A DNA stretch of 64,000 nucleotides from Pristiophorus japonicus (taxonomy: Eukaryota), in the NCBI RefSeq assembly GCF_044704955.1, contig NC_091998.1:4340001-4404000 (forward strand). The letters run 5' to 3'. Each line of letters begins with the position of its first letter. Position 1 is the stretch's first letter. The notes under the pieces were generated by a model. That model worked only from the letters and a program-made list of their open reading frames with translations, had not been told where the DNA came from and made no database searches. Shown here in pieces: positions 23,714 to 58,143 of the stretch. A program made the translations under genes and the position numbers.

Positions 23714-25541
23714 ATTATGTCTCAATACATCGCAGAGAATTTACAGCACAGAAACAGGCCATTCGGCCCAACCGGTCTATGTCGGTGTTTATGCTCCACT
23801 TGAGCCTCCTCCCACCACTCTTCATCTCACCCCATCACCATATCCTTCCAAATATATAATTCCTCGATCTCCAAAACCCATGAACCCTCTACTTCTTTTA
23901 GCAGCTAGTCTTACCAGTGTACTGTTATGTCAGTTAAAAAATATCTTTGCTGAAACAATGAGTGGTGACGATTTCATGAGAAGACCTCACCCACAGAATT
24001 ATTATTTTTATCATTTTTGTTATTTCCTGTCAACTTCCATTAATTCCGTTAAAACAATGGGATGATACGGTTCGGCCTGGAGGATTCTGTCAACCTGACA
24101 GTGTGAAGGAAGTTCAAGTAACATCGGTACAAACAGAAAGGAGTGTTAAAGTTAACCATATCCATTGTTTGATTTTAAGAGGTACCAATGGCAAGACTCA
24201 CTTTTTAACTTTTTTAAAGTTAATTGAGAGATAATTTCGCTTTTTAAGTTGTCAGTCTTCATTGATTCACTGCATTTTGCTGTTAGGCTACTGTCAAGTA
24301 CAAAAAAAGAGAAATGCCAACTAAATTGTAGGATTCATATAAATACCAGCAATTGGAGGAAGCTGGGGTTAATGTTACACGTCTGTGTCCTTTTATTGGG
24401 GTTCTGGAGGGTTTTGCTGGACTTCCCGCTAGAAGTCCAAGGAAATTACGGAGTAGTGTGAGAACTGGCTTAACTCATGCACCATATTTGCCTCAGATTT
24501 TTGTACAGGATAATGCCTTTATAATATAAATGGAGGATAAGCCATACTCTTAAGTTCCTCTGGAATGTGTAACTGGAATCGCCCAGCCTAAGTTCTGAGT
24601 GAATTTCCAATTTGTAATTCAATCCATTTTGACTTCAGAAGCCACAGAGGATAGGTCTCTCCAAAAACCACCAAGTTCCAGCCAAAGTCCATTACCCCAG
24701 TGTAAGTGCATCCCTCCCACAGCTGAAGTCCATTACCCCAGCAATCCCTCCGCCAGCTGAAGACCCTTACCCAATTGCAAGAACTTCCTCCCCACCCTCC
24801 CGAATTTTTTAAGGCTGTAACTAGTAGAGTGGACAAGGGAGAACCAGTGGATGTGGTGTATTTGGACTTTCAAACAGCTTTTGACAAGGTCCCACAAAAT
24901 AGATTATTGTGCAAAATTAAAGCACATTGTATTGGGGGTAATGTATTGACGTGGATAGAGAACTGGTTGGCAGACAGGAAGCAAAGAATAGGAAAAAACG
25001 GGTCCTTTTCAGAATGGCAGGCAGTGACTAGTGGGATACCGCAAGGTTCAGTGCTGGGACCCCAGCTATTTACAATATACATTAATGATTTGGACAAAGG
25101 AATTGAATGTAATATCTCCAACTTTGCAGATGACACGAAGCTGGGTGGCAGTGTGAGCTGTGAGGAGGATGCTAAGAGGCTGTAGGGTGACTTGGATAGG
25201 TTAGATGAGTGGGCAAATGCATGGCAGATGCAGTATAATGTAGATAAATGTGAGGTTATCCACTTTGGTGGCAAAAACAGGAAGGCAGAATATTATTTGA
25301 ATGGTGACAGATTAGGAAAAGGGGAGATGCAACGAGACCAGGGTGTCATGGTACATCAGTCATTGAAAGTACAGAAGACGGTGAAGGCAAATGGCATGTT
25401 GGCCTTCATAGCGAGAGGATTTGAGTATAGGAGCAGGGAGGTCTTACTGCAGTTGTACAGGGCCTTGGTGAGGCCTCACCTGGAATATTGTGTACAGTTT
25501 TGGTCTCCTAATCTGAGGAAGGACATTCTTGCTATTGATGG

Positions 25542-25788
25542 TGTCATGTATCTTACATTATTATATATAACTGTATCCTAACATGCTATACATGACTGTA
25601 ATAAGATATGACCTGTAAACACAAGCATATCTTACCACCAGGGGTGCACTTACAAGAGACAGGTATATAAGGACAGGTCTCAGGCAAGTGCAGCATTCCA
25701 GAGCTGTGAAATAAAGGTACAGGCCAGAGTGACCTTGATTTCACTACATGCCTCGTGTGAATCTGTAGTGAGGGGACAGGACTTTACA
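25542..25788 (+). repeat. LTR (U3-R-U5) with TATA box at 25664 and AATAAA at about 25710
   Basis: TGTCATG...TTTACA, near-identical to 30321-30568. Confidence 0.95.
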
Positions 25789-26079
25789 GATGGAGTGTAG
25801 CGAAGGTTCACCAGATTGATTCCTGGGATGGCAGGACTGACATATGAAGAAAGACTGGATTGACTCAGCTTATATTCACTGGAATTTAGAAGAATGAGAG
25901 GAGATCTCATAGAAACATATAAAATTCTGACGGGATTGGACAGGTTAGATGCAGGAAGAATGTTCCCGATGTTGGGGAAGTCCATTCCAGAGCTGTGAAA
26001 TAAAGGTGCAGGTCCAGAGTGACCTTGACTTCACTACATGCCTCGTGTGAGTCTGTACTGAGGGGACAGGACTTTACAG

Positions 26080-26099
26080 TGGCGACGGGTTACGGGATT
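26080..26099 (+). promoter_or_regulatory. Primer-binding site complementary to the tRNA-Ser(GCT) 3' end
   Basis: TGGCGACGGGTTACGGGATT follows the LTR. The expected complement of vertebrate tRNA-Ser(GCT) is TGGCGACGAGGATGGGATT. Confidence 0.75.
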
Positions 26100-26113
26100 A
26101 CAGAATCCACAGA

Positions 26114-29100
26114 ATGGCGAACAACGGATCAGATGAAAAGTACAATGCGAGAGACAATTCGGAGGACTTTATAGAAAGGCTCCAGCAAAGCTTTGTAACC
26201 AAAGACTGGTTAGGCGATGATAAGGTAGTCAAGAGAAGAGCCCATCTCTTGACCAGCTGTGGCTCGAAAACATACGCTTTAATGAAGGATCTGGTGGCAC
26301 CCAAGAAACCAGCAAGCGAGTCATTTGAAGAATTGAGCACACTGGTAAGAGACCACCTGAAGCCAGCGAGCAGCCTACAAATGGCCAGACACAGGTTCTA
26401 CGACTACAGACGCTGTGTGGGCCAGAGCATACCCGACTTCGTGGCGGAACTTCGGAGGTTGGCTAGTTTATGTGAGTTCTCCGATGAACTGAGGAGAGAA
26501 ATGCTGAGAGACATTTTCATTGAAGGAATAAGCCATGCAGGCATATTCCGAGAGCTCATAGAGACCAAGAACCTGACCTTAGAGGCAGCAGCACTGGTTG
26601 CACAGACATTCTTGGTAGGGGAAGAACAACAAGGTTGATTTACAATGCAGGTATGACAACTAACAAAATATCGGAACAAGAAGTTCACAGCACTAAACAA
26701 GCTGCTACCCCCACACACAGACAAAACCGGGAGAGCAGGTTCTCGATAGCAGGCAAAAGACATCAAGGGCCACAGGAACGGCCGTTCACACCTTATCAAC
26801 CCACAATGCGAGCAATCACTACAAACTGAGAGAAGCTCAAGAGAGATCAGCCAGACGCAGCTCATTCTTTGGAAACTTTTTGAACAATGGAACAGGTCTG
26901 TGCTGGAGGTGTGGGGGTGGGCACTCGTCAAGGGGATGTCGATTTCAGCAGGCTGTTTGCAGAAATTGTGAATATACAGGGCATTTGGCCCGCATGTCCA
27001 AAAAAACGGCAGCTCGGCTAGTATACGAATCGGATGGGTCGGAAAGCGGACCAGAAGATGGTGGGGACAGTACCCGGGACACCGGTGTACAGCGGGTCAA
27101 TACAATTAATGGCCGCTGCTCCTACAACAGGACGCCTCCTATAATGATGAGGGTCCTACTCAATGAGATATCTGTCAACATGGAGCTGAATACGGGAGCG
27201 AGTCAATCTCTCATGGGCGCTCAACAATTTGAACAACTGTGGTCGCATAAAAGAGACAGACCAAAACTCACAAGGGTCGACACTACTCTAAGGACCTATA
27301 CCAAAGAAATCGGACCAGTCCTCGGCAGCGCCATGCCCTCTGTCACACACAAAGGGACAGTGAACCGACTTCCCCTGTGGATTGTCCCCGGAGACCCCCC
27401 AGCACTGCTGGGGAGAAGCTGGCTGGCAAAACTAAACTGGAAAAGGGATGATGTCCATGCCATGTCATTAGAGGAACGGACCTCCTGCTCAACAGTTATA
27501 AAGCGATTTGAACATCTCTTTCAGCCAGGTGTGAGCACTTTCAAAGGGCCAAAGTCAAAATCTACATCACACAGGATGCTAGAACGGTCCATCACAAGGC
27601 CAGAGCTGTACCCTATGTGATGAGGAAAATGATTGAACACGAACTAGACAGGCTTCTGCGGGAAGGCATTATATCACCTGTGGAATTTAGCGACTGGGCA
27701 AGTCCCATCATCCCAGTCATGAAGCCTGATGGATCCGTACGAATCTGTGGGGACTACAAATCTACCATAAACAGAGTCTCCCAATAGGACCAGTACTCGC
27801 TGCCCAGAGCGGAGGACTTATTTACCACATTGGCTGGAGGTAAACATTTCTCAAAATTAGACCTCACATCTGCGTATATGACGTAAGAATTGACCGAGGA
27901 ATCCAAGCTACTCACCACCATCAACACACATCGAGGCCTTTTCATGTACAATCGATGCCCATTTGGGATCAGGTCGGCAGCTGCCATATTCCAGCGCAAC
28001 ATGGAGAGTCTGCTCAAGTCCATCCCGGGAACGGTTGTATTTCAAGACGACATACTTATCACGGGCAGGAACACCGACTCCCATCTCCGTAATTTGGAGG
28101 AAGTACTAAAGCGGTTGGATCGGGTAGGCCTACAAGAAATCCAAGTGCCTGTTTCTCGCACCCGAGGTTGAATTTTTGGGCAGAAGGATTGCCACTGATG
28201 GAATCCGCCCAACAGAGTCCAAAACAGAAGCAATTCGTCTGGCACACAGGCCCCGGAATGTCTCAGAACTGCGCGCCTTTCTCGACTACTCAATTACTTT
28301 GGGAACTTTATGCAGAACTTAAGCATGATGCTGGAGCCTCTCCACGTGCTACTGAGAAAGGGGTGCGATGGGTTTTGGGGGGACGCCCAGGAACGCGCCT
28401 TCAATAAGGCACGCAACCTTCTGTGTTTCAACAGTGTTTTGACTTTCTTTGCCCCAGGTAAAAAGCTAGTCCTCACATGCAATCCGTCAGCATATGGGGT
28501 CGGGTGCGTTTTGCAACATTTCAATAGTGCGGGCAAATTACAACCCATAGCTTATGCTTCCAGGTCACTTTCGCGGGCGGAGCGCGGGTCCGGAATGGTC
28601 GAGAAGGAGGCGCTCGCGTGTGTGTACGGTGTCAAAAAGATGCACCAATACCTTTTCGGGGCCAAGTTCGCATTAGAAACCGACCACAAGCCCCTCACGT
28701 CCCTCCTATCCGAGAGCAAGGCAATAAACGCCAACGCCTCGCCGCAAATTCAACGGTGGGCACTTATGCTGGCGTCCTACGACTATACCATAAGGCACAG
28801 ACCAGGCACAGACAACTGTGCCGACGCGCTCAGCAGGCTACCCCTGGCAACCACGGAAGGGTCTGACGAACAGGACTGTGAGATAGTCATGGCAATCAAT
28901 GCCTTTGAGTCCACAGGTTCGCCCATGACAGCTCGCCAAATCAGAGCCTGGACGGCCAGCGACCCCACGTTATCCTTAGTAAAAAGATGTGACCTAACTG
29001 GTGACTGGGCAGAGGCTCGCGATGCCTGCCCCGAGGAATTAAAACCCCTTCACAGGCGCATGCATGTGCTATCACTACAAGCAGACTGCCTGATGTGGGG

Positions 29101-30290
29101 CAGCCGAGTAGTCATGCCTCTGCGAGGCAGAGAGGCATTTGTCTGGGAGCTCCACCGCGAGCACCCGGGGATCATTCTCATGAAGGCCATAGCCAGATCC
29201 CACGTCTGGTGGCCTGGTATTGACACGGACCTGGAGCTCTGCGTCCGAAGGTGCACCATTTGTGCCCAACTCAGCAATGCCTCAGGGAGGCTCTACTGAG
29301 CCCCTGGCCCTGGCCTACCAAACCGTGGTCGCGGGTGCATGTAGACTATACGGGCCCATTCATGGGCAAATTGTTCCTCTTGTTTGTAGATGCATTTTCA
29401 AAGTGGATCGAATGCAACATTTTAAACTCGAGCACAACCTCCACCACTGTGGAGAGCCTCGCAACCATGTTTGCAACGCACAGAATCCCTGACATATTGG
29501 TCACTGACAATGGTCCGTGCTTCACCAGCGCTGAATTCCAAGACTTTACAATTGACCACGGCATAAATCACGTCAAGACGGCACCGTTCAAGCCGGCCTC
29601 CAACGGCCAGGCGGAGAGAGCAATGCAAATCATTAAACAAGGTATGCTTAAAATCCAAGGTCCCACGCTGCAGGATCGCCTGTCACGACCGCTGCTGGCA
29701 TACAGATCTCGTCAGCATTCATTGACTGGGATCCCCCCACGCAACTGTTGATGAAAAGGACTTTAAAAACAAGGCTCTCATTAATCCTCCCAGACATGCA
29801 CGAAACCGTTGAGGCAAAGCGCCGTAAGCTGACTGAGTACCATGACAGAAATTCGAGGGGGTGATGGAATGAGATAGGGGACAAAGTGTTTGTACTAAAC
29901 TATGGTAGGGGTCCCAAATGGCTTGCAGGGACAGTAACGGGCAAGGAAGGAAACAGGCTACTGGTAGTACAAATGGACAATGGCAAAACCTGCTGGAGGC
30001 ATGTAGACCAAGTCAAAAGTAGATTTACCAACAACACTGCGGAACCAGAGGCAGACTACAATGTGGAACTCGCACCACGCCTGGTGGACAGACAGAGGGA
30101 ACAACCTGAGGAAAGGGCAATCCCAACAGACAGCCCAGGCGAGTCAACAACAATCACACCAATCGAAACAGACAGCCCAGGCGAGATACCAGCAATCACA
30201 CCCAAAGAAAAACAGACACCAAGGCAAACAACTGAACCACAACTCAGACGCTCCACGCGAGAGCGTAGACCACCTGCAAGACTGAACCTA
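26114..30290 (+). pseudogene. gag-pol polyprotein (gag, zinc knuckles, protease, RT, RNase H, integrase), multiply disrupted
   Basis: Motifs: CWRCGGGHSSRGC and CRNCEYTGH (knuckles), ELNTGAS (protease Asp mutated), VFQDDIL (RT), EKEALACVYG and ETDHKPL (RNase H), HPG...VWWPG..C..C, VHVDY, TDNG and NGQAER (integrase). Several stops and frameshifts. Confidence 0.93.
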
Positions 30291-30320
30291 CAAAGACAAT
30301 AAGACCTTGGGGGAGGGTGA

Positions 30321-30568
30321 TGTCATGTATCTTACATTATTGTATATAACTGTATCCTAACATGCTATACATGACTGTAATAAGATATAACCTGTAACCA
30401 CCAGCATACCTTACCACCAGGGGTGCACTTGCAAGAGACAGGTATATAAGGACAGGTCTCAGGCAAGTACAGCATTCCAGCGCTGTGAAATAAAGGTGCA
30501 GGTCCAGAGTGACCTTGACTTCACTACATGCCTCATGTGAATCTGTACTGAGGGGACAGGACTTTACA
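30321..30568 (+). repeat. 3' LTR
   Basis: Preceded by the PPT GGGGGAGGGTGA and followed by the GATGG TSD and the CR1 continuation. Confidence 0.95.
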
Positions 30569-31377
30569 GATGGAGTGTAGCGAAGGTTCACCAGACTGAT
30601 TCCTGGGATGGCAGGACTGACATATGAAGAAAGACTGGATTGACTAGGCTTATATTCACTGGAATTTAGAAGAATGAGAGGGGATCTCATAGAAACATAT
30701 AAAATTCTGACGGGATTGGACAGGTTAGATGCAGGAAGAATGTTCCTGATGTTGGGGAAATCCAGACCAGGGGTCACAGCCTAAGGATAAGGGGTAAGCC
30801 ATTTAGGACCGAGATGAGGAGAAACTTCTTCACTCAGAGCATTGTGAACCTGTGGAATTCTCTACCACAGAAAGTTGTTGAGGCCAGTTCATTAGATATA
30901 TTTAAATGGGAGTTAGTTGTGGTCCTTATGGCCAAAGGGATCAAGGGGTATGGAGAGAAAGCAGGAATGGGGTACTGAAGTTGCATGATCAGCCATGATC
31001 ATATTGAATGGTGGTACAGGCTCAAAGGGCTGAATGACCTACTCCTGCATCTATTTTCTATGTTTCTGTGTTTCTTTCTATGTGACAGTGTCGTGACTTC
31101 TGGATTTCATCCACCCCAATGATGTAACACATGCACCGAGCTTGCATGCACCAGGGGGTAGGTAGAACGTGATCCATCTTCTCTGAGTTCCCTCTCTCCC
31201 CTCCAATCCCACCCACCCCAGCCCCGCAACCAAGCTCTCTCTCTGCGCCCCCCCCTCCCCCAGGCTCTCTCCCCCCCCCCCCCACCCCCGCCAAGCTATA
31301 TGTCTCTGCCCACCCCACCCCACCACCCCCCCCCAGCTCTCTCTCCCTGCCTCTTGCTCTCCCCGGTGCCGTGGTAG

Positions 31378-31587
31378 GCTCGGGGCCCGCTCGGCGCTGT
31401 GGGAGGCTCGGGGACTCGGGGCCCTCTCGGCGCTGTGGGAGGCTAGGGGACTCGGGGCCCGCTCGGCGCTGTGGGAGGCTCGGGGACTCGGGGCCCTCTC
31501 GGCGCTGTGGGAGGCTAGGGGACTCGGGGCCCGCTCGGCGCTGTGGGAGGCTAGGGGACTCGGGGCCCTCTCGGCGCTGTGGGAGGT
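31378..31587. repeat. GC-rich 36-bp minisatellite (about 6 copies, 72-bp higher-order alternation)
   Basis: Unit GGGAGGCT(C/A)GGGGACTCGGGGCCC(G/T)CTCGGCGCTGT. The G/T site alternates strictly. Confidence 0.92.
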
Positions 31588-31754
31588 TCAGCGGATGTGT
31601 TCACCTGCTGCTGGATGGATCGGAGGCAATGTGGCGTTGGACACATGGGCAGAAAAGGGTTCGTGAGAATTGCACTGGGGGAGGAGGGGCGGAGTCGGTG
31701 ATATTTGTCCTATCTCTTGCTTCTACGCATGTGTCGGAAGACTTAGTTACTTTG

Positions 31755-47672: not shown

Positions 47673-49897
47673 ATTGTGTTTGGAGAGGTAAGCACTCTTG
47701 TGTATAATGCTCTATATATCGTAGATCAATTCTTTCCTCCTTTTCCACTTTATTTACTTGTGGTGTTGGTGAGTTAACACCCTATATACGGACACAGACT
47801 ATTTAGCCCCGAGTGCAATTACTTCCCAACTCACTCAAAATACGTAATACCCCTTCTTTCCTTTGTTTTTCCATAATACTTGTCCGATAGAGGGAGAAAT
47901 GCCCCGATTTAATGTGCAAATGGTCCAGCAACTTATAGTGAGGAAGAGATACCCCGTGAGTTGCAAATCATCACGTTGCTGGACATTAGCATCGCAAAAT
48001 CAGCAGCTCGCCCTCAAACTCCCCGTGAATTTTGTAAAGTTGCTGCATTTGCACATTAATTATCAATTAAACTCGCCGCAGAAAGTTAGGGCTGATACTT
48101 AACAGCACAAGTATCTTTTTAGTAAGAAGATTTGAGTTCCTGCAATGCCACTCAACCTCTCCGGCCCAGAAAGGAAACAATTGAAACTGTGGAGTCTCAT
48201 TCCTGCATTTAGTACATTGTTGTTAAAGATTTTTTAAACTATAAATGTTCTTACTTTTCCTTTCTGTCTCTTTTTTCTCTCTCTCGCTTTATCCAATCTT
48301 TCTTTCCCTCTCATTATTTCTCTTTCTGTACCAGCTTTGACTCTAATTCACCGTATTTCCTTCTCCATCGTTCCTCTGTTTCTTTCTCAATCTTTAAATC
48401 TCGTGGATTAAGGAGATACACTGTTGGTCCCCTCATTCACTAAGTCGCCACGCTGTTATCAGTTCGTACTTTGAGCGAGTTATCGGGCAATAAATTTTCG
48501 AGCTGAAGGGCAGGGGCAGATCCACCATGGGGCGGATGGGGCTCCAGCCCCATGCCCACCAAATAACATAGACCCACCAAATAAATGTAGGAAAACATTT
48601 ATAAGGCCTCTTTTATGTATGCAATAAAGGTACAAACTGAGTACTGCTTAACTGAACAAGGAACAACCTTGGCTCTGCTTTATTACGGCCCAAAGCGCCT
48701 GACTCACAAAATGGCTGGCCTTTTAATGACACCATCTGTTGGCTACAAACAACATGTACATACATGACAATACCCTCCTCGGAGATCTTATCACAGTCTT
48801 TCACAGGTTGAGACGGTCCGGTGCTTTATGCTCCCGGGTTGACCGTCTCAGTTTGATTCCGGACTTAGGTGAATGTACGGAGTCTGTTGTGGCTGGTGGC
48901 TGGATGGCTGACTTGTTGGGGGTGGCAGTGGGCATGTCAGGAATTGCAAGTCCATTTTTATTGAACAAGTCCGTGATGGAAATTCCGTGTTCACTGATGA
49001 CCCTCGGGTCCACTGAAGGCTGCTGGTAGGTTGGTTGGTCGGCGACAGTTTCTTCGTCCGACTGCTCTGGCCTGTCTGTGTGCCTCAGCTTTGTCTGATC
49101 CATGTGTTTCCTGCAAGTTTGCCCATTCTTGAGCTTAATAACAAATACTCTGTTGCCCTCCTTGGCCATGACCGCACCAGCGATCCAGTTGGGACCCTGA
49201 CCATAATTCAACACATATACAGGATCATTAACAGAAATATCGCGTGACACAGTTGCGCGATCGTGGTATCCTTGTTGACTCTGTCTTCTGTATTCAACAT
49301 GATTACTTAAAGCCGGGTGTACAAGAGATAACTTGGTCTGAAGACTTCTTTTCATCATGAATTCAGCAGGCAAGACCCCTGTGAACGTGTGGGGTCTTGT
49401 CCTGTAACTCAGCAGTATGCAAGACAAGCGGGTCTACAGTGACCCTTGGGTTACCCTCCTCATGCTTTGCTTGATAATTTGTACTACAAGTTCTGCTTGC
49501 CAATTGGTTGTAGGCTTGAACAGTGCTGACCTTACATATTTTATGCCGTTAAATTTTACAAACTCCTGAAACTCCTGACTGGTGAAGCACCACCCATTGT
49601 CGCTCACCACTATGTCAGGCAGATCATGTGTCGTGAACATGACATTGAGATTCTCCATGGTTGCCGTGGATGTACTGGATGACATGATTATGCATTCTAT
49701 CCACTTTGAATAAGCATCCACCACCACTAAAAACATCATGCCCAGGAAGGGACCTGCAAAATCTACATGGATCCTGGAACAAGGTTTGGATGGCCATGAC
49801 CACAGACTCAGTGGCAATTCCACTGTTGTTTTGCTGAGCTGCATGCAGGTGTTGCATCAATTCCTGGCCACCATATGTGGGACCTGATGATGGCCTT

Positions 49898-52800
49898 TAT
49901 TGTGTTCCTAACACAGATGAGGCTGCACACAGGGAGGTTAAAGTAACAGTGACCTCAGTCTTTAATAAGACACTCCAGAGTGAGGAACAGGCCTTAGGGG
50001 CCGGCTTATATACAGTGCTCCCAAGGGATGCTGGGATCCCTTGGGACTTCAGGGGATGAGCTCCCTGGTGGCGGAATATGGGAGTGCATGCTTTACAGAT
50101 ACAACATCACTACTACGCCAAAGTCAAAGTGAAAACTATTTACAAGGTGAGGCAGTTGGGAGCCTTTCTTTCCCTGGTGGATCGCCTTGGCACAAATGTC
50201 TGTTCTGGTGTGTTGGCTGTGCCCTCGCTGGGCTGGCGTATTGTTGGCCTTGCAGGGCTGCTAGGTGAGCCTGGCCTTGCTGGGCTTTTGGGCGTGATGG
50301 GTTCGATTTCCTGGTCCGGCGTGGTGTCATTGATCCTTTGGGTGTGTGTTGTGGGCTCGATAAAGGTGGTGTCTGCTGTGGGTTGTTCAGGGCAGTCTGT
50401 GAACTGCAGCCCCGCTTTCTGCAAATTTGTCCAGTGTCTAGTTTGACTACAAACACCCGACTCCCTTCTTTAGCTATCACTGTACCCGCGATCCACTTGG
50501 GACCATGTCCATAGTTTAGCACATACACAGGGTCTGGAGATCAATTTCCCGTGACACAGTGGCGCGACCAAATTTGTTGCTGCCGCTTGCTCTCTACCTG
50601 ATCATGCAGGTTGGGGTGGACCAGCGAGAGTCTGGTTTTAAGTGTCTTTTTCATGAGTAGCTCAGTCGGGGGCACCCCTGTGAGCAAGTGGGGTCTCGTG
50701 CGGTAGCTGAGCAGTACTCGGGATAGGCGGGTTTGGAGTGAGCCTTCTGTGACTCGTTTAAGGCTCTGTTTGATGGTTTGTACTGCCCGCTCTGCCTGCC
50801 CAATGGAGGCTGGTTTAAACGGGGCCGAGATGACATGTTTGATCCCATTGCGGGTCATGAATTCTTTAAATTCGGCACTGGTGAAACATGGCCCGTTGTC
50901 ACTGACCAGTATGACAGACAGGCCGTGGGTGGCAAACATGGCCCTCAGGCTTTCAATGGTGGCGGTGGCGGTGCTTCCCGACATTATTTCACATTCAATC
51001 CATTTTGAAAAAGCATCCACCACCACCAGGAACATTTTACTGAGAAACGGGCCAGCATAGTTGACATGGATCCTCTACCATGGTCTGGAGGGCCAGGACC
51101 ACAAACTTAGTGGTGCCTCTCTGGGCGCGTTGCTCAACTGAGCACATACGCTGCATTGCGGTACACAGGACTCTAAGTCAGAGTCGATACCGGGCCACCA
51201 CACGTGGGATCTGGCTATCGCATTCATCATTACTATACCCGGGTGTGTACTGTGGAGATCCGAGATGAACTTTTTTGGTAGCACTATGCGGTTACCCCAC
51301 AACAGGCAGTCTGCCTGAATGGACAGCTCGTCCTTTCACTGCTGGAACGGCTTGATTGACTCTTGCATTTCAACGAGGATACTGGCCCTGCTCCCATGCA
51401 GTACACAGTTTTTTACTAGGGACAGCAGAGGATCTTGGCTGGTCCAAGTCCTAATCTGGCAGGCAGTGACAGGTAATTTATCATTTTCAAACGCTTCCAT
51501 GGCCATCACAAGTCTGCGGGCTGTGCCACCATCAACAAGTTTGCAGGCTGCGCCATTTCCACCCCCGTGGTGGGCAACGGTAGCCGACTGAGAGCATCCG
51601 CACAGTTCTCGGTGCTGGCCTATGGCGGATGGTATAGTTATATGCTGATAGCGCGAGTGCCCAACTTTGTATGCGGGCTGCGGCATTAGTATTTATCCCC
51701 TTGTTTTCAGCGAACAGGGGTGTGAGGGGCTTATGATCGGTTTCCAGCTCAAATTTGAGGCCAAACAGGTACTGATGCATTTTCTTTACCCCGAACACAC
51801 ACGCTAATGCTTCTTTCTCAATCATGCTGTAGGCTCTCTCGGCCTTAGACAAGCTCCTGGAAGCATAGGCAAAAACGAAGGGCGGTAAGAGAAGGGATAA
51901 CCAGCCGTGGATAACCAAGGAAATAAAAGAGAGTATCAAATTAAAAACCAATGCGTATAAGGTGGCCAAGGTTAGTGGGAAACTAGAAGATTGGGAAAAT
52001 TTTAAACGACAGCAAAGAATGACTAAGAAAGCAATAAAGAAAAGAAAGATAGATTACGAAAGTAAACTTGCGCAAAACATAAAAAGATAGTAAAAGCTTT
52101 TACCCTTATATAAAATGGAAAAGAGTGACTAAAGTAAATGTTGGTCCCTTAGAAGATGAGAAGGGGGATTTAATAATGGGAAATGTGGAAATGGCTGAGA
52201 CCTTAAACAAATTATTTTGCTTCGGTCTTCACAGTGGAAGACACAAATACCATGCCAAAAATTGCTGGTCACGGGAATGTAGGAAGGGAGGACCTTGAGA
52301 CAATCACTATCACTAGGGAGGTAGTGCTGGACAGGCTACAGGATCTCAAGGTAGACAAGTCCCCTGGTCCTGATGAAATGCATCCCAGGGTATTAAAAGA
52401 GATGGCAGAAGTTATAGCAGATGCATTCATTATAATCAACTAAAATTCTCTGGACTCTGGGGAGGTACCATTGAATTGGAAAGCAGCTAATGTAACGCCT
52501 CTGTTTAAAAAAGGGGGCAGACAAAAGGCAGGTAACTATAGGCCGGTTAGTTTAACATCTGTAGTGGGGAAAATGCTTGAAGCTATCATTAAGGAAGAAA
52601 TAGCGGGACATCTCGATAGGAATAGTGCAATCAAGCAGACGCAACATGAATTCATGAAGGGGAAATCATGTTTAACTAATTTACTGGAATTCTTTGATGA
52701 TATAACGAGCATGGTGGATAGAGGTGTACCGATGGATGTGGTGTATTTAGATTTCCAAAAGGCATTCGATAAGGTGCCACACAAAAGGTTACTGCAGAAG

Positions 52801-55800
52801 ATAAAGGTACGCGGAGTCAGAGGAAATGCATTAGCATGGATAGAGAATTGGCTGGCTAACAGAAAGCAGAGAGTCGGGATAAATGGGTCCTTTTCGGGTT
52901 GGAAATTGGTGGTTAGTGGTGTGCCACAGGGATCGGTGCTGGGACCACAACTGTTTACAATATACATAGATGACCTGGAAGAGGGGACAGAGTGTAGTGT
53001 AACAAAATTTGCAGATGACACAAAGATTAGTGGGAAAGCGGGTTGTGTAGAGGACACAGAGAGGCTGCAAAGAGATTTAGATAGGTTAAGCGAATGGGCT
53101 AAGGTTTGGCAGATGGAATACAGTGTCAGAAAATGTGAGGTCATCCACATTGGAAAAAAAAACAGTGAAAGGGAATATTATTTGAATGGGGAGAAATTAC
53201 AACATGCTGCGGTGCAGAGGGACCTGGGGGTCCTTGTGCATGAATCCCCAAAAGTTAGTTTGCAGGTGCAGCAGGTAATCAGGAAGGCGAATGGAATGTT
53301 GGCCTTCATTGCGAGAGGGATGGAGTACAAAAGCAGGGAGGTCCTGCTGCAACTGTACAGGGTATTGGTGAGGCCGCACCTGGAGTACTGCGTGCAGTTT
53401 TGGTTACCTTACTTAAGGAAGGATATACTAGCTTTGGAGGGGGTACAGAGACGATTCACTAGGCTGATTCCAGAGATGAGGGGGTTACCTTATGATGATA
53501 GATTGAATAGACTGGGTCTTTACACGTTGGAGTTCAGAAGGATGAGGGGTGATCTTATAGAAAACATTTAAAATAATGAAAGAGATAGACAGGATGTTTC
53601 CACTGGTCAGGGAGACTAGAACAGCCTCATAATGCGGGGGAGCCAATTTAAAACCGAGTTGAGAAGGAATTTCTTCTCCCAGAGGGTTGTGAATCTGTGG
53701 AATTCTCTGCCCAAGGAAGCAGTTGAGGCTAGCTCATTGAATATATTCAAATCATAGACAGATAGATTTTTAACCAATAAGGGAATTAAGGGTTATGGGG
53801 AGCGGGCGGGTAAGTGGAGCTGAGTCCACGGCCAGATCAGCCATGATCTTGTTGAATGGCGGAGCAGGCTCAAGGGGCAAGATGGCCCACTCCTGTTCCT
53901 AATTCTTATGTTCTTATGTTGCAACTTCCGCGCAACGTTAGCTTGTTGTAATACACACCAGACTCCGTACGACGACACGTTATATGCTAGCACAAGTCTT
54001 TTACACAAGTTATACAATACAAGCAGCTTGTTGGAGCATAAAATGTTTCTGGCTTTCTCAAAAGCAATTACTTGTTTTTTTGCCGATACCCAGTTCTCAC
54101 CTTTGCGCAATAACACATGTAAGGGTTCTAAAAGGGTGCTTAACCCCGATGGGAAGTTATTCAAATAGTTGAGGAATCCCAGGAACGACCTCAGCTCCAT
54201 GACGTTCTGTGGCCTGGGGGCGTTCCTGATAGCCTCTGCCTTGGCGTCTGTGGGCCGAATGTCATCCGCCGCGATCTTTCTCCCCAAAAACTCCACTTCT
54301 GTTGCCATGAAGACGCATTTCGACCTCTTCAGCCGCAGTCCTACGCGATCCAATCGCTGGAAGACCTCCTCCAGGTTTTGTAGGTGCTCGACGGTGTCCT
54401 GACCCGTGACCAATATGTCATCCTGAAAGACCACGGTGTGTGGTACCGACTTGAGTAGGCTCTCCATGTTTCTCTGGAAGATCGCTGCAGCCCACCGATT
54501 TCTAAACGGGCATCTGTTGTAGTTGAACAGTCCCTTGTGCGTGTTGATGCAGGTGAGGCCCTTCGAAGACTCCTCCAGCTCCTGCGTCATGTAGGTCGAA
54601 GTCAGGTCGAGCTTGGTGAACATCTTGCCTCCTGCCAGCGTTGCAAATAGGTCATCTGCCTTAGGTAGTGGGTATTGGTCCTGTAGTGAGAAACGATTAA
54701 TAGTTACTTTATAATCGCCACAAATCCTGACCGTACCATCACTTTTGAGTACTGGAACAATCGGGCTGGCCCACTCGCTGAATTCCACTGGGGAGATGAT
54801 GCCCTCGCGTTGCAGCCTGTCCAGCTTGATTTCCACTCTCTCCCTTATCATGAGAGATACCGCTCGCGCCTTGTGGTGAATGGGTCGTGCCTCTGGGACC
54901 ATATGGATCCACACATTCGCGCCGGAAAAGTTTCCAATGCCTGGCTCAAAAAGGGAAGGAAATTTGTTCAGAACCTGGGTACATGAGGCCTCATCGACAT
55001 GTGATAGCACTCGGATGTCATCCCAGTTCCAGACAGCTCCTTCCAAGCAGTGTGGGGCCATCACCCGGGACAATCCAGAGTGGCAGTTCGTGCACCGTGC
55101 CCTCATAGGTGACATTGACCATGGCGCTGCCCATGACAGTGATAAGCTCTTTGGTGTATGTTCTCAGTTTCGTGTGGATGGGGCTCAGGGCTGGTCTGAG
55201 TGCCTTGTTGCACCACAGACTCTCAAACATCTTTTTACTCATGATGGATTGGCTAGTGCCAGTGTCCAGTTCCATGGCCATGGGTAAGCCATTCAGTTGT
55301 ACGTTTAGCATTATAGGTGGACATTTTGTCGAAAATGTGTTCACCCCATGTACTTCAGCATCTGCCTCCTCTCTCTGAGGCTCATAATTACTTTGATCCA
55401 CCATGGACTAATCTTCCTCTGCCACGTTGCGGTTAGCAGGTTTTGCAGAGCTTGCAGCTTGTTTGCAAGCTCAATGGTGGTGCCCCATTGTTCCACAGCT
55501 CTTGCAAACATATCCTTTGAAGCGGCATGATTAGGCTGAATGGAAGCCTCCACAACTCCAACAAGGTGTGAATTGCCTTGCATTCATCCTTTGTTGAGCA
55601 CTCTGAGTCATCTGGGTCACCTGAGGCCTGCTGGCAGTTGCAGACTCATGGGTTCTGCCCTCTACATTTCTGCTCGCAAACACAGTTCCAGTTAATTTAT
55701 GAACATTGCTAGCACTTGTGTGCTGAGAGATTTGTTTGGTGTTATCACTGGTGTACATAAACACATGTGCTATCGCAATGGCCTTACTGAGGGTCGGTGT

Positions 55801-56503
55801 CTCTACAGTCAAAAGTTTCCGTAAGGATAGTGTCGTGGCCAATGCCCAGTACAAAAAAGTCTCTGAGCATTTGCTCCAGGTAGCCATCAAACTCACAATG
55901 TCCTGCAAGTCGCCTTAGCTCAGTGACGTAGCTCGCCACTTCCTGACCTTCAGATCGCTGGCACGTGTAGAACCGATACTTCACCATCAGCACGCTCTCC
56001 CTCGGGTTAAGATGCTCCCGAACCATTGTACACAGCTCCTGATAAGACTTATCTGTGGGTTTCACCAGAGCCAGAAGATTCTTCATGAGGCTGCAGGTCG
56101 GTGCCCCGCAGACTGTGAGGAGGACCGCTCTCCTTTTTGCAGCGCTTCCTTCTCCGTCCAGCTTGTTGGCTACAAAGTACTGGTCTAGCCGTTCGACATA
56201 GGCTTCCCAGTCCTCACCCTCCGAGAACTTCTCCAGTATGCCCATAGTTGTTTGCTGCATCCTTGCGTTGGATTCGTATTCTCGTCACCAGTTATTGTGT
56301 TCCTAACACAGATGAGGCTGCACACAGGGAGGTTAAAGTAACAGTGACCTCAGTCTTTAATAAGACACCCCAGAGTGAGGAACAGGCCTTAGGGGCCGGC
56401 TTATATACAGTGCTCCCAAGGGATGTTGTGATCCCTTGGGACTTCAGGGGATGAGGTCCCTGGTGGCGGAACATGGGAGTGCTTGCTTTACAGATACACA
56501 ACA
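49898..56503 (-). mobile_element. Nested Gypsy element B inserted in the integrase zinc-finger region of A
   Basis: LTRs at 49898-50106 and 56293-56503, perfect GCCTT TSD and PBS TGGTGACGAG. gag starts at 56260, followed by LDTG protease, VFQDDIL RT (ORF 53793..55115) and integrase (50541..51035). Confidence 0.94.
51871..53920 (+). mobile_element. CR1 insertion in the RNase H region of element B, with a 366-codon open RT stretch (52471..53571)
   Basis: Motifs [33 protein letters not shown] and KFADDTK, and a (TTCTTATG)2 tail. It splits the host KLQ|AYASRSL with loss of a few bases and no TSD. Confidence 0.94.
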
Positions 56504-58143
56504 GCCTTCATCATCACTATACCAGGATGTGTGATGTGTAACTCACGCACAAACTTCTGACTCCCTTTCTTAGGCATTACAACTAGATTGCCCCACCATA
56601 TGCAATCTGCTTGAATAGACAGTTCGTCCTTGCGATGAATGTATGGTTTGGCCTCCTCGCACATTTGCTTAGGTATGGCAGACCAATCCCCTTTGAGGAT
56701 GCAACCCTTTATCACTGATAATATCGGGTCCTGGCTGGTCCAGGTCTTAACTTGTTGAACCATGACAGGGGTACCTTCACTCTCAAAAGCATCCATGATT
56801 AACATTAAATCTGCTGGTTGTGGCGTTTCCACCTCCGGTGTGGGCAACGGCAACTGGCTCAAAGCATCGACACAATTCTCTGTGCCAGGTCTGTGGTGAA
56901 TGACATAATCACAGGCAGATAATGTCAGCGCCCACCTTTGGATGCAGGATGAAGCGTTGGTATTGATACCTTTGCTCTCGGAAAACAATGAAATGAGTGG
57001 CTTTTGATCGGTCTCTAATTCAAACCTCAGACCGAACAGGTATTGCTGCATCTTTTTAACAGCATTCACACACGCTAAAGCTTCTTTTTCTACCATACTG
57101 TAGGCTCTTTCTGCTTTTGACAAACTTTTGGATACATACATGACAGGTTGAAGTTTTCCCGACTCATTGGCTTTTTGTAACACGCGACCAATTCCATATG
57201 ATGATGCGTCACAGGCCAAAACTAAACATTTACGTGGGTCATCATGTACCAGCAGCTTGTTCGAGCAAAGCAGATTGGTGGCTTTCTTGAAAACTCTGTC
57301 TTGCAATGCGCCCCACACCCAGTTGTTGCCTTTTCTCAATAGCATGTGCAGGTGCTCAATTTAGGTAGGAAGTTATCAATGTAGTTGAGTAGACCCAGGA
57401 ACGAACACAGCTCCGTTGCGTTTTGCGGCTTGGGTGCATTCTTGATGGCTTTGGTTTTCATGTCAGTAGGTCTGATGCCATCAGCGGCGATTTTCCTCCC
57501 GAGGAATTCGACCTCCGGTGCCATGAAGATGCACTTCGATCGTTTAAGTCTGAGTCCCACTCTGTTCAAACGCAGTAGAACCTCTTCCAGGTTGTTCAGA
57601 TGTTCCTTGGAGTCACAACCGGTGATCAGGATGTTATCTTGGAACACGACAGTTCTGGGAACGGACTTCAGTAGACTTTCCATATTCCTCCAGAATATTG
57701 CTGCAGCCGAGCGAATTCCAAACGGGCACCTGTAGTAAATAAACAGCCCTTTGTGCGTGTTAATGCACGTAAGTCTCTTCGACGCCTCGACCAACTCCTG
57801 TGTCATATAGGCCGACGTCAAGTCCAGATTTGTGAACGACTTCCCTCCGGCTAATGTCGGAAACAAGTCATCAGCCTTCGGTAACGGGTACTGATCTTGT
57901 TTCAAAACCCTGTTGATTGTAGCCTTGTAGTCTCCACAGATTCTGACTGTGCCATCACTTTTCAGCACAGGAACAATGGGGTTGGCCCATTCATTAAATT
58001 CGACCGGTGATATGATCCCTTCACACTGGAGCCTGTCTAATTCAATTTCAACCTTCTCCCTCATCATATACAGCACTGCCCGTGCTTTATGATGAACAGG
58101 TCTTGCACCTGAGTCCACGTGGATCTGCACCTTGGCTCCCGTG

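What the first reader, a model, noticed from the sequence alone, without database searches (positions are those of the whole stretch)
25537..30770. Gypsy element whose 5' end carries a copy of its own 3' flank, joined at the predicted transcription start (possible read-through transduction written back into the parent locus)
Seen in sequence: the order is CR1a - GATGG - [U3-R-U5] - X - [R-U5] - PBS - gag/pol - PPT - [U3-R-U5] - X - rest of CR1. X is the 196-bp CR1 flank (25789-25984 versus 30569-30764). Both X copies share private disabling changes (GAGTGTAGCGA and GGATTGACT) and differ at about 6 positions by eye, so X was copied from this locus at roughly the age of the insertion (LTR-LTR about 5%). 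The partial LTR begins at CATTCC through a 2-bp CA microhomology. In the full LTR that A (25695) lies 31 nt downstream of the first T of TATATAA (25664), at an Inr-like position and therefore the expected U3/R boundary. Established: retroviral read-through transcripts can be transduced when minus-strand strong-stop DNA (R-U5) jumps to non-R sequence, producing U3-R-U5-flank-R-U5. Inference: such a cDNA recombined with its own source locus and replaced the 5' LTR. A DNA-level alternative (SDSA overrun, or tandem duplication followed by LTR-LTR deletion) would not predict a breakpoint at the transcription start.
Basis: partly seen in the sequence, partly recalled or inferred. Interest (0 to 1): 0.78.

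Follow-up and report, generated by a model that had tools for sequence, protein, structure and literature searches.

The report
LTR patched with neighbour's flank, twice
An old jumping gene in a shark-like genome carries, at its front end, a 290-base copy of its own back end plus adjacent DNA, joined at the predicted start of transcription; a second copy elsewhere shows the same join with a donor 75 kb away, so this is most likely a local DNA-repair scar rather than an RNA copy written back.

Summary
The structure is as described: CR1-GATGG-LTR-X-[R-U5]-PBS-gag/pol-PPT-LTR-X-rest of CR1. X copies differ at 6 of 196 bases, full LTRs at 13 of 248, and the join overlaps the predicted +1. The LTR-X junction occurs only here; no read check was obtained. 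A search around the predicted start found a second locus of the same build: LTR-1.39 kb flank-[R-U5], joined at LTR columns 150-156 (here 153-154). Its donor is a solo LTR 75 kb away that shares a private base with the copy. Both donors are the nearest family LTR seen. That fits break repair by one-sided copying from a nearby LTR, and fits poorly a cDNA made in a particle, which could target any of 1741+ LTRs. The start-site link is only suggestive: 2 of 5 junction loci near +1 versus 0 of 24 elsewhere (p 0.025; 0.14 without this locus), and the start is predicted, not mapped. Verdict: likely a repair-mediated duplication primed by LTR homology (0.58); RT-made compound cDNA remains possible (0.25).

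The parts
24800..25541 (+). 5' part of the host CR1-type LINE
   Evidence: RVT_1 hit in 24727-25182; colinear with other copies in the window
25537..25541 (+). Target-site duplication GATGG, left copy
   Evidence: middle T private against 28 CR1 copies for X, 1 of 18 for this copy
25542..25788 (+). Full LTR L1 (U3 likely from the original 5' LTR, R-U5 likely copied from the 3' LTR)
   Evidence: TG...CA ends
25664..25715 (+). TATA box (25664), predicted +1 (A25695, LTR column 154) and AATAAA (25710-25715)
   Evidence: sequence; TATA-to-A spacing 31 nt in 120 of 132 own-type and 17 of 21 longer-U3 relatives in hand; start not mapped
25789..25984 (+). X1, the duplicated 196-bp CR1 flank
   Evidence: 6 of 196 differences to X2; best genomic match X2
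25983..25984 (+). CA microhomology at the new join (LTR columns 153-154); a 6-nt TCCAGA match lies beside it
25983..26078 (+). Partial LTR L2 (R-U5), likely the remainder of the original 5' LTR
26079..30320 (+). Internal region: PBS-like start (label recalled), gag-like ORF, pol broken into pieces in the order RT - RNase H - integrase, PPT-like 30309-30320
   Evidence: ORFs; Pfam RVT_1, RT_RNaseH, Integrase_H2C2, rve
30321..30568 (+). Full 3' LTR L3, likely donor
30569..30764 (+). X2, the original flank
   Evidence: continues without a break into the rest of the CR1
30765..31080 (+). Rest of the CR1 with its 3' end

Best explanation
The extra LTR-flank block is most likely a DNA-repair scar: a break near the predicted transcription start of the 5' LTR was likely repaired by copying from the element's own 3' LTR, running 196 bases into the flank, and rejoining through a short microhomology. 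Inferred steps: (1) a break at or near LTR column 150-154; (2) the left end (U3) invades the nearest homologous LTR; (3) synthesis copies R-U5 and overruns into the donor's flank; (4) the new strand is joined to the right end (R-U5 onward) by microhomology instead of re-annealing at R-U5. Shown: the products at two loci, the donors, their distances (4.8 kb and 75 kb) and the join positions. Whether the start site itself attracts the break (about 0.35 of the 0.58) or the position is chance (about 0.23) is open.
For: Second locus of identical build, G000:C3:194168238-194172200 (minus): internal part-PPT-LTR-1389 bp Y-[R-U5 from column 150]-unrelated flank. Y's donor is a solo LTR with its own TSD (CTATT/CTATC) and the same flank, 75 kb away, inverted, 97% identical. 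Donor and copied LTR share G at column 154, seen in 0 of 58 other LTRs and absent from the partial LTR. The donor is the only other LTR of this family in 167 kb; random integration that close has chance 2.5e-5. Size and distance of the window's copy (about 290 bp, under 5 kb) fall in the range of repair-mediated duplications (PMC2671141, Results part 1). The family shows another such event: an 85-bp copy of flank 600 bp away inserted at column 47/53 of an LTR (L322). Short microhomologies lie at both joins. No dispersed daughter copies.
Against: Both joins overlap or abut the predicted +1, which an RNA 5' end explains at base resolution and diffuse promoter breakage does not. Among 29 loci with an internal LTR junction, the LTR-flank-partial type is 2 of 5 at columns 149-159 and 0 of 24 elsewhere (p 0.025; 0.14 without this locus; with columns 149-165, 0.089 and 0.29). 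The copy is as old as the insertion within error, when the element was most likely intact and transcribed. The model needs the new strand to ignore 96 bp of homology at the right end. The second locus has lost its 5' half, so a compound 5' LTR cannot be excluded there.
Confidence: 0.58

Rival explanations
1. Read-through transduction: reverse transcriptase joined R-U5 strong-stop DNA to a read-through RNA, making U3-R-U5-flank-R-U5; the cDNA then recombined into its source element (window) and into, or integrated near, a neighbour (C3 locus).
For: Both joins include or abut the predicted +1; the C3 copy has exactly the 3' end such a cDNA would have; event as old as the insertion; cDNA recombination into existing elements is documented in fission yeast (PMC11042837, passages); retroviral 3' transduction is cited in PMC5131818 (passages).
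Against: No reason for a particle-made cDNA to return to its source among 1741+ LTRs or to land 75 kb away (2.5e-5); no dispersed copy with this junction; no element with two compound LTRs among 362 loci with an LTR hit, a set enriched for odd junctions; no splicing in Y, where the 222-bp gap is in the donor, not the copy.
Confidence: 0.25
2. An R-terminated cDNA from some other family member was captured at a break beside a resident solo LTR (L1); its 3' LTR recombined with L1 and copied X. No return to source is needed.
For: Explains the +1 join in the window without proximity. L2 has G at column 221 where L1 and L3 have A, and 5 of 16 two-LTR elements chosen for that G carry it in both LTRs.
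Against: 11 of those 16 carry G in the 5' LTR only, so 5'-G/3'-A is common; the G/G elements are not a clade and the window's internal region does not group with them. It cannot explain the C3 locus, where R-U5 is followed by host DNA, not a PBS.
Confidence: 0.07
3. Two steps: tandem duplication of R-U5...X, then LTR-LTR deletion of the first copy.
For: Gives the same end product in the window; small tandem duplications occur in this family (L023, L411).
Against: Two events; does not apply to the C3 locus (inverted, 75 kb).
Confidence: 0.05
4. Assembly or haplotype artefact.
For: No read-level support was obtained; CR1 and LTR are both high-copy.
Against: Repeated blocks differ by 3-5% with private changes in each copy; the join is a novel microhomology junction; an independent locus has the same join position.
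Confidence: 0.05

Closest known systems
Repair-mediated duplications, Pace et al. 2009 (PMC2671141; abstract and Results part 1 of 3 read)
   Same: Short copy (up to 619 bp) of DNA within 5 kb inserted into a transposable element, with microhomology at the join, attributed to SDSA-type repair.
   Different: Here the left join is long LTR-LTR homology rather than microhomology, the copy runs from the donor LTR into its flank, one donor is 75 kb away, and both right joins lie at the predicted start site. The part read does not describe this.
[quoted passage not shown]
   Same: Predicted product U3-R-U5-flank-R-U5 with the join at the R start.
   Different: That route gives two compound LTRs at a new, unlinked site (recalled); here one end is compound and donor and copy are neighbours.
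Integrase-independent cDNA insertion at existing elements, Tf1/Tf2 (PMC11042837, passages); tandem LTR structures in plants (PMC11899658, passages)
   Same: cDNA or recombination builds three-LTR structures at an existing element.
   Different: Those share a complete central LTR between two internal regions; the passages read show no host flank between LTR pieces and no partial R-U5.
LTR-mediated retrocopies, Tan et al. 2016 (PMC5131818, passages)
   Same: Host sequence joined to LTR-element sequence by short microsimilarity.
   Different: Captured mRNA replaces internal sequence; here own or neighbouring genomic flank sits between two LTR pieces.

Membership tests
Ty3/Gypsy LTR retrotransposon | pol order RT - RNase H - integrase | tested here: met
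Ty3/Gypsy LTR retrotransposon | TG...CA LTRs with 5-bp TSD | tested here: met
Ty3/Gypsy LTR retrotransposon | gag/protease domains; clade placement by RT tree | tested here: inconclusive
   no Pfam hit at E 0.001 for the two upstream ORFs; no tree with named references made
Repair-mediated duplication | insertion of 50 bp or more into a repeat, copied from one proximal donor (<5 kb) | tested here: met
   about 290 bp, 4.8 kb; the C3 case exceeds the distance (75 kb) and size (1.5 kb)
Repair-mediated duplication | microhomology, filler or deletion at the join; no poly(A) | tested here: met
Repair-mediated duplication | empty orthologous site in a related genome | not testable with these tools
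   no relatives held
Read-through transduction by strong-stop mis-transfer | join at the RNA 5' end | tested here: inconclusive
   join overlaps TATA+31 position; start not mapped
Read-through transduction by strong-stop mis-transfer | both LTRs compound | tested here: not met
   window: only the 5' end; C3: 5' half lost, not testable
Read-through transduction by strong-stop mis-transfer | copy integrated at a new unlinked site | tested here: not met

The most novel reading that the evidence does not exclude
LTR-retrotransposon reverse transcription can act locally in the germline nucleus: read-through RNA is copied with the strong-stop jump landing in the flank, and the compound cDNA is written back into the source element or the nearest family member, leaving LTR-flank-R-U5 scars joined at +1. 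Two loci in one genome would be the first fossils of it.
Probability: 0.2. Interest if true: 0.8.

Novelty: new variant of a known kind. Interest (0 to 1): 0.5.

Why it matters
High-copy LTR families give thousands of identical templates on which repair scars can be mapped to the base. If LTR-flank-R-U5 scars really pile up at +1, they would record either base-precise germline breakage at a promoter or a local cDNA write-back route that is not described for vertebrate LTR elements; one census of a public genome can tell these apart. Either route also moves host flank into the transcribed R-U5 boundary of an element. If the joins are scattered, it is an ordinary repair duplication.

Tried and rejected
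Reads: no RNA holder listed. Contigs of 4 runs laid on 25300-26400 were about 60-nt repeat fragments; only 32 of about 49,000 pieces were shown and none bridged a junction, which proves nothing. The join therefore stays unconfirmed by reads and the start site unmapped.

Donor-subfamily idea from the G at column 221: internal-region tree of 34 rows is star-like and G/G elements do not group (elements without two full LTRs or with internal length outside 3.8-4.6 kb were left out, 33 of 40 kept).

L335 (C2:37334 kb; internal region - 332-bp CR1 piece - LTR from column 150) first looked like a third proximal templated copy; rejected because other CR1 copies match at 99% and the neighbour only at 96%. 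L188 (LTR from column 156 inside another Gypsy) has no upstream LTR or donor within 5 kb. An apparent duplication beside the C3 locus was just young CR1 copies.

General enrichment of foreign junctions at the start site: not seen; such junctions occur from column 38 to 198. Two patterns were off by one column and served only as lists of candidates. Coverage was partial: 100 of 125 listed, 100 of 174, 31 of 31, 74 of 74, 48 of 48, 100 of 542 (C1, C2, start of C3). In each, the first 30 loci were checked by BLAST and further ones picked by eye. A random foreign flank passes these patterns with probability 0.22-0.57, times the share of copies with an exact core.

Shared private changes between L1 and L3 that would date the event after insertion: none against 58 LTRs.

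Literature: searches listed nothing whose title or abstract start describes this structure; classic retrovirology papers are mostly outside the library, so absence from print is not shown. PMC12789967 (passages) had nothing on transduction. No supplements were read.

Full report
Observation. The window lies at G000:C22:4340001-4404000 of a 5.9-Gb genome. The order CR1a-GATGG-L1-X1-L2(R-U5)-internal region-L3-X2-rest of CR1 is in the sequence. L1/L3 differ at 13 of 248, L1/L2 at 5 of 96, L2/L3 at 3 of 96, X1/X2 at 6 of 196. The internal region has RT, RNase H and integrase hits in Ty3/Gypsy order, in broken pieces. L2 starts through a CA overlap at LTR columns 153-154; column 154 (A25695) is 31 nt after TATATAAG and 15 nt before AATAAA. 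That spacing holds in 120 of 132 own-type and 17 of 21 longer-U3 related LTR contexts in hand, so it is a good predicted start, but it is not mapped. X1 matches X2 best (97% against 96%), and the LTR-GATGG junction has only the two matches in this locus.

Age. Pairs that date the insertion differ at 10 of 248 sites, the copied R-U5+X block at 12 of 292: the copy is as old as the insertion within wide error. L1 and L3 share no private change against 58 family LTRs. The family is large (1741 candidates, a lower bound) and star-like.

Is the join at CATTCC recurrent? A pattern for CATTCC behind non-LTR letters gave 25 hits; only this locus has foreign DNA upstream, and 4 are small deletions ending at CATTCC. 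So there is no visible population of R-starting or doubly compound copies. A wider pattern for columns 149-158 gave 31 hits, one of which is a second case. At G000:C3:194168238-194172200 (minus) lie part of the internal region, PPT, a full LTR, 1389 bp of unrelated DNA (Y), then R-U5 from column 150, ending at the normal LTR end inside another Gypsy-like sequence. Y occurs once more at 97% identity, directly behind a solo LTR with TSD CTATT/CTATC, 75 kb away and inverted. Donor and copied LTR share G at column 154, seen in 0 of 58 other LTRs and not in the partial LTR; Y differs at 23 of 1170 aligned sites, and the donor lacks 222 bp that the copy has. The join can be read as a 7-nt microhomology (columns 150-156, if the donor later lost 7 bp) or as a short filler before column 150; I could not polarise it. 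The 5' half of that element is lost, and the donor is the only other LTR of this family in the 167 kb scanned.

Controls. Equivalent patterns for columns 53-62 (74 hits), 191-200 (48 hits) and 104-158 (542 hits, 100 listed) gave CR1 insertions, deletions, inversions, an internal tandem repeat and one 85-bp copy of nearby flank (L322), but no LTR-flank-partial LTR. Of 29 distinct loci with an internal LTR junction, hand de-duplicated, the type is 2 of 5 at columns 149-159 and 0 of 24 elsewhere: one-sided Fisher p 0.025 with this locus, 0.14 without; for columns 149-165, 0.089 and 0.29. This locus was picked partly for its start-site join, so the fair figure is the weaker one. The start-site link is suggestive, not established.

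Mechanism. Both loci can be written as one event: [R-U5 + flank] of a nearby LTR inserted at the R start of another LTR. The left join is invisible (homologous U3); the right join has short microhomology (CA with a TCCAGA match beside it, share of chance pairs 1.4%). What must be explained is proximity and position. Proximity favours a chromosomal template: a particle-made cDNA has ends homologous to every family copy, and integration within 75 kb has chance 2.5e-5. One-sided invasion of the nearest homologous LTR, overrun into its flank and microhomology joining (inference, from established SDSA/end-joining models) gives both products, and the window's copy falls within the size and distance range of repair-mediated duplications (PMC2671141, abstract and Results part 1). 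Position favours an RNA end, or a break tied to the promoter; breaks are enriched around start sites, though not described at base precision in the passages read (PMC6316733). Against the repair model, the new strand must bypass 96 bp of homology at the right end. I put repair at 0.58, RT-made compound cDNA acting locally at 0.25, capture of a foreign R-terminated cDNA at 0.07 (the G at column 221 did not support it), two-step duplication/deletion at 0.05 and artefact at 0.05. These are judgements, not computed values.

Relation to what is known. It works like a repair-mediated duplication primed by LTR homology and meets the two features testable here. It resembles retroviral read-through transduction in the shape of one end but fails 'both ends compound' and 'new unlinked site'. 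cDNA recombination into resident elements exists in fission yeast (PMC11042837, passages), giving tandem elements with a whole central LTR. My paper searches (listings only) and the scan's index showed no description of LTR-own-flank-R-U5 with a start-site join; the library lacks most classic retrovirology.

Limits. No read confirmation (uninformative); no RNA evidence; pattern searches see only part of the cases; two loci only.

Verdict. A real and unusual structure, now seen twice with the same join position and a near donor. Most likely a variant of repair-mediated duplication; a cheap genome-wide census would decide whether the start site matters and whether RNA is involved. Interest 0.5.

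Noticed in passing
L332 / G000:C3:194168238-194172200 and L354 / G000:C3:194092513-194093935: Second LTR-flank-R-U5 locus and its donor solo LTR 75 kb away; the element's internal region also has a 279-bp tandem duplication.
   Followed up: yes
L322 (G000:C6:74797 kb): 3' LTR interrupted at column 47/53 by an 85-bp, 98% identical copy of flank 600 bp downstream: a plain repair-mediated duplication.
   Followed up: partly
L419 (G000:C1:299201 kb): 5' LTR of a related subfamily: columns 1-60, then an inverted LTR copy (98% to the 3' LTR), then resumes at column 159.
   Followed up: partly
L401 (G000:C1:225970 kb): Inverted copy of LTR columns 129-248 plus the first 81 internal bases inserted inside the same element's internal region.
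   Followed up: no
L335 (G000:C2:37334 kb): PPT and U3 replaced by a tail-less 332-bp piece of a young CR1, joined to the LTR at column 150-151.
   Followed up: partly
L061-L080: 11 of 16 two-LTR elements chosen for G at column 221 carry it in the 5' LTR only, 5 in both; recurrent mutation or LTRs unequal at integration was not resolved.
   Followed up: partly
listings: Recurrent identical small deletions between short repeats (ACAGG-ACAGG removing the TATA box; CAG-CAG around the predicted start) in many unlinked LTRs.
   Followed up: no
window 49513-58114 (minus): Pieces of other, 65-70% related Gypsy-like internal regions.
   Followed up: no
window 31343-31625: GC-rich 36-bp tandem repeat, about six copies, just beyond the CR1 end.
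   Followed up: no
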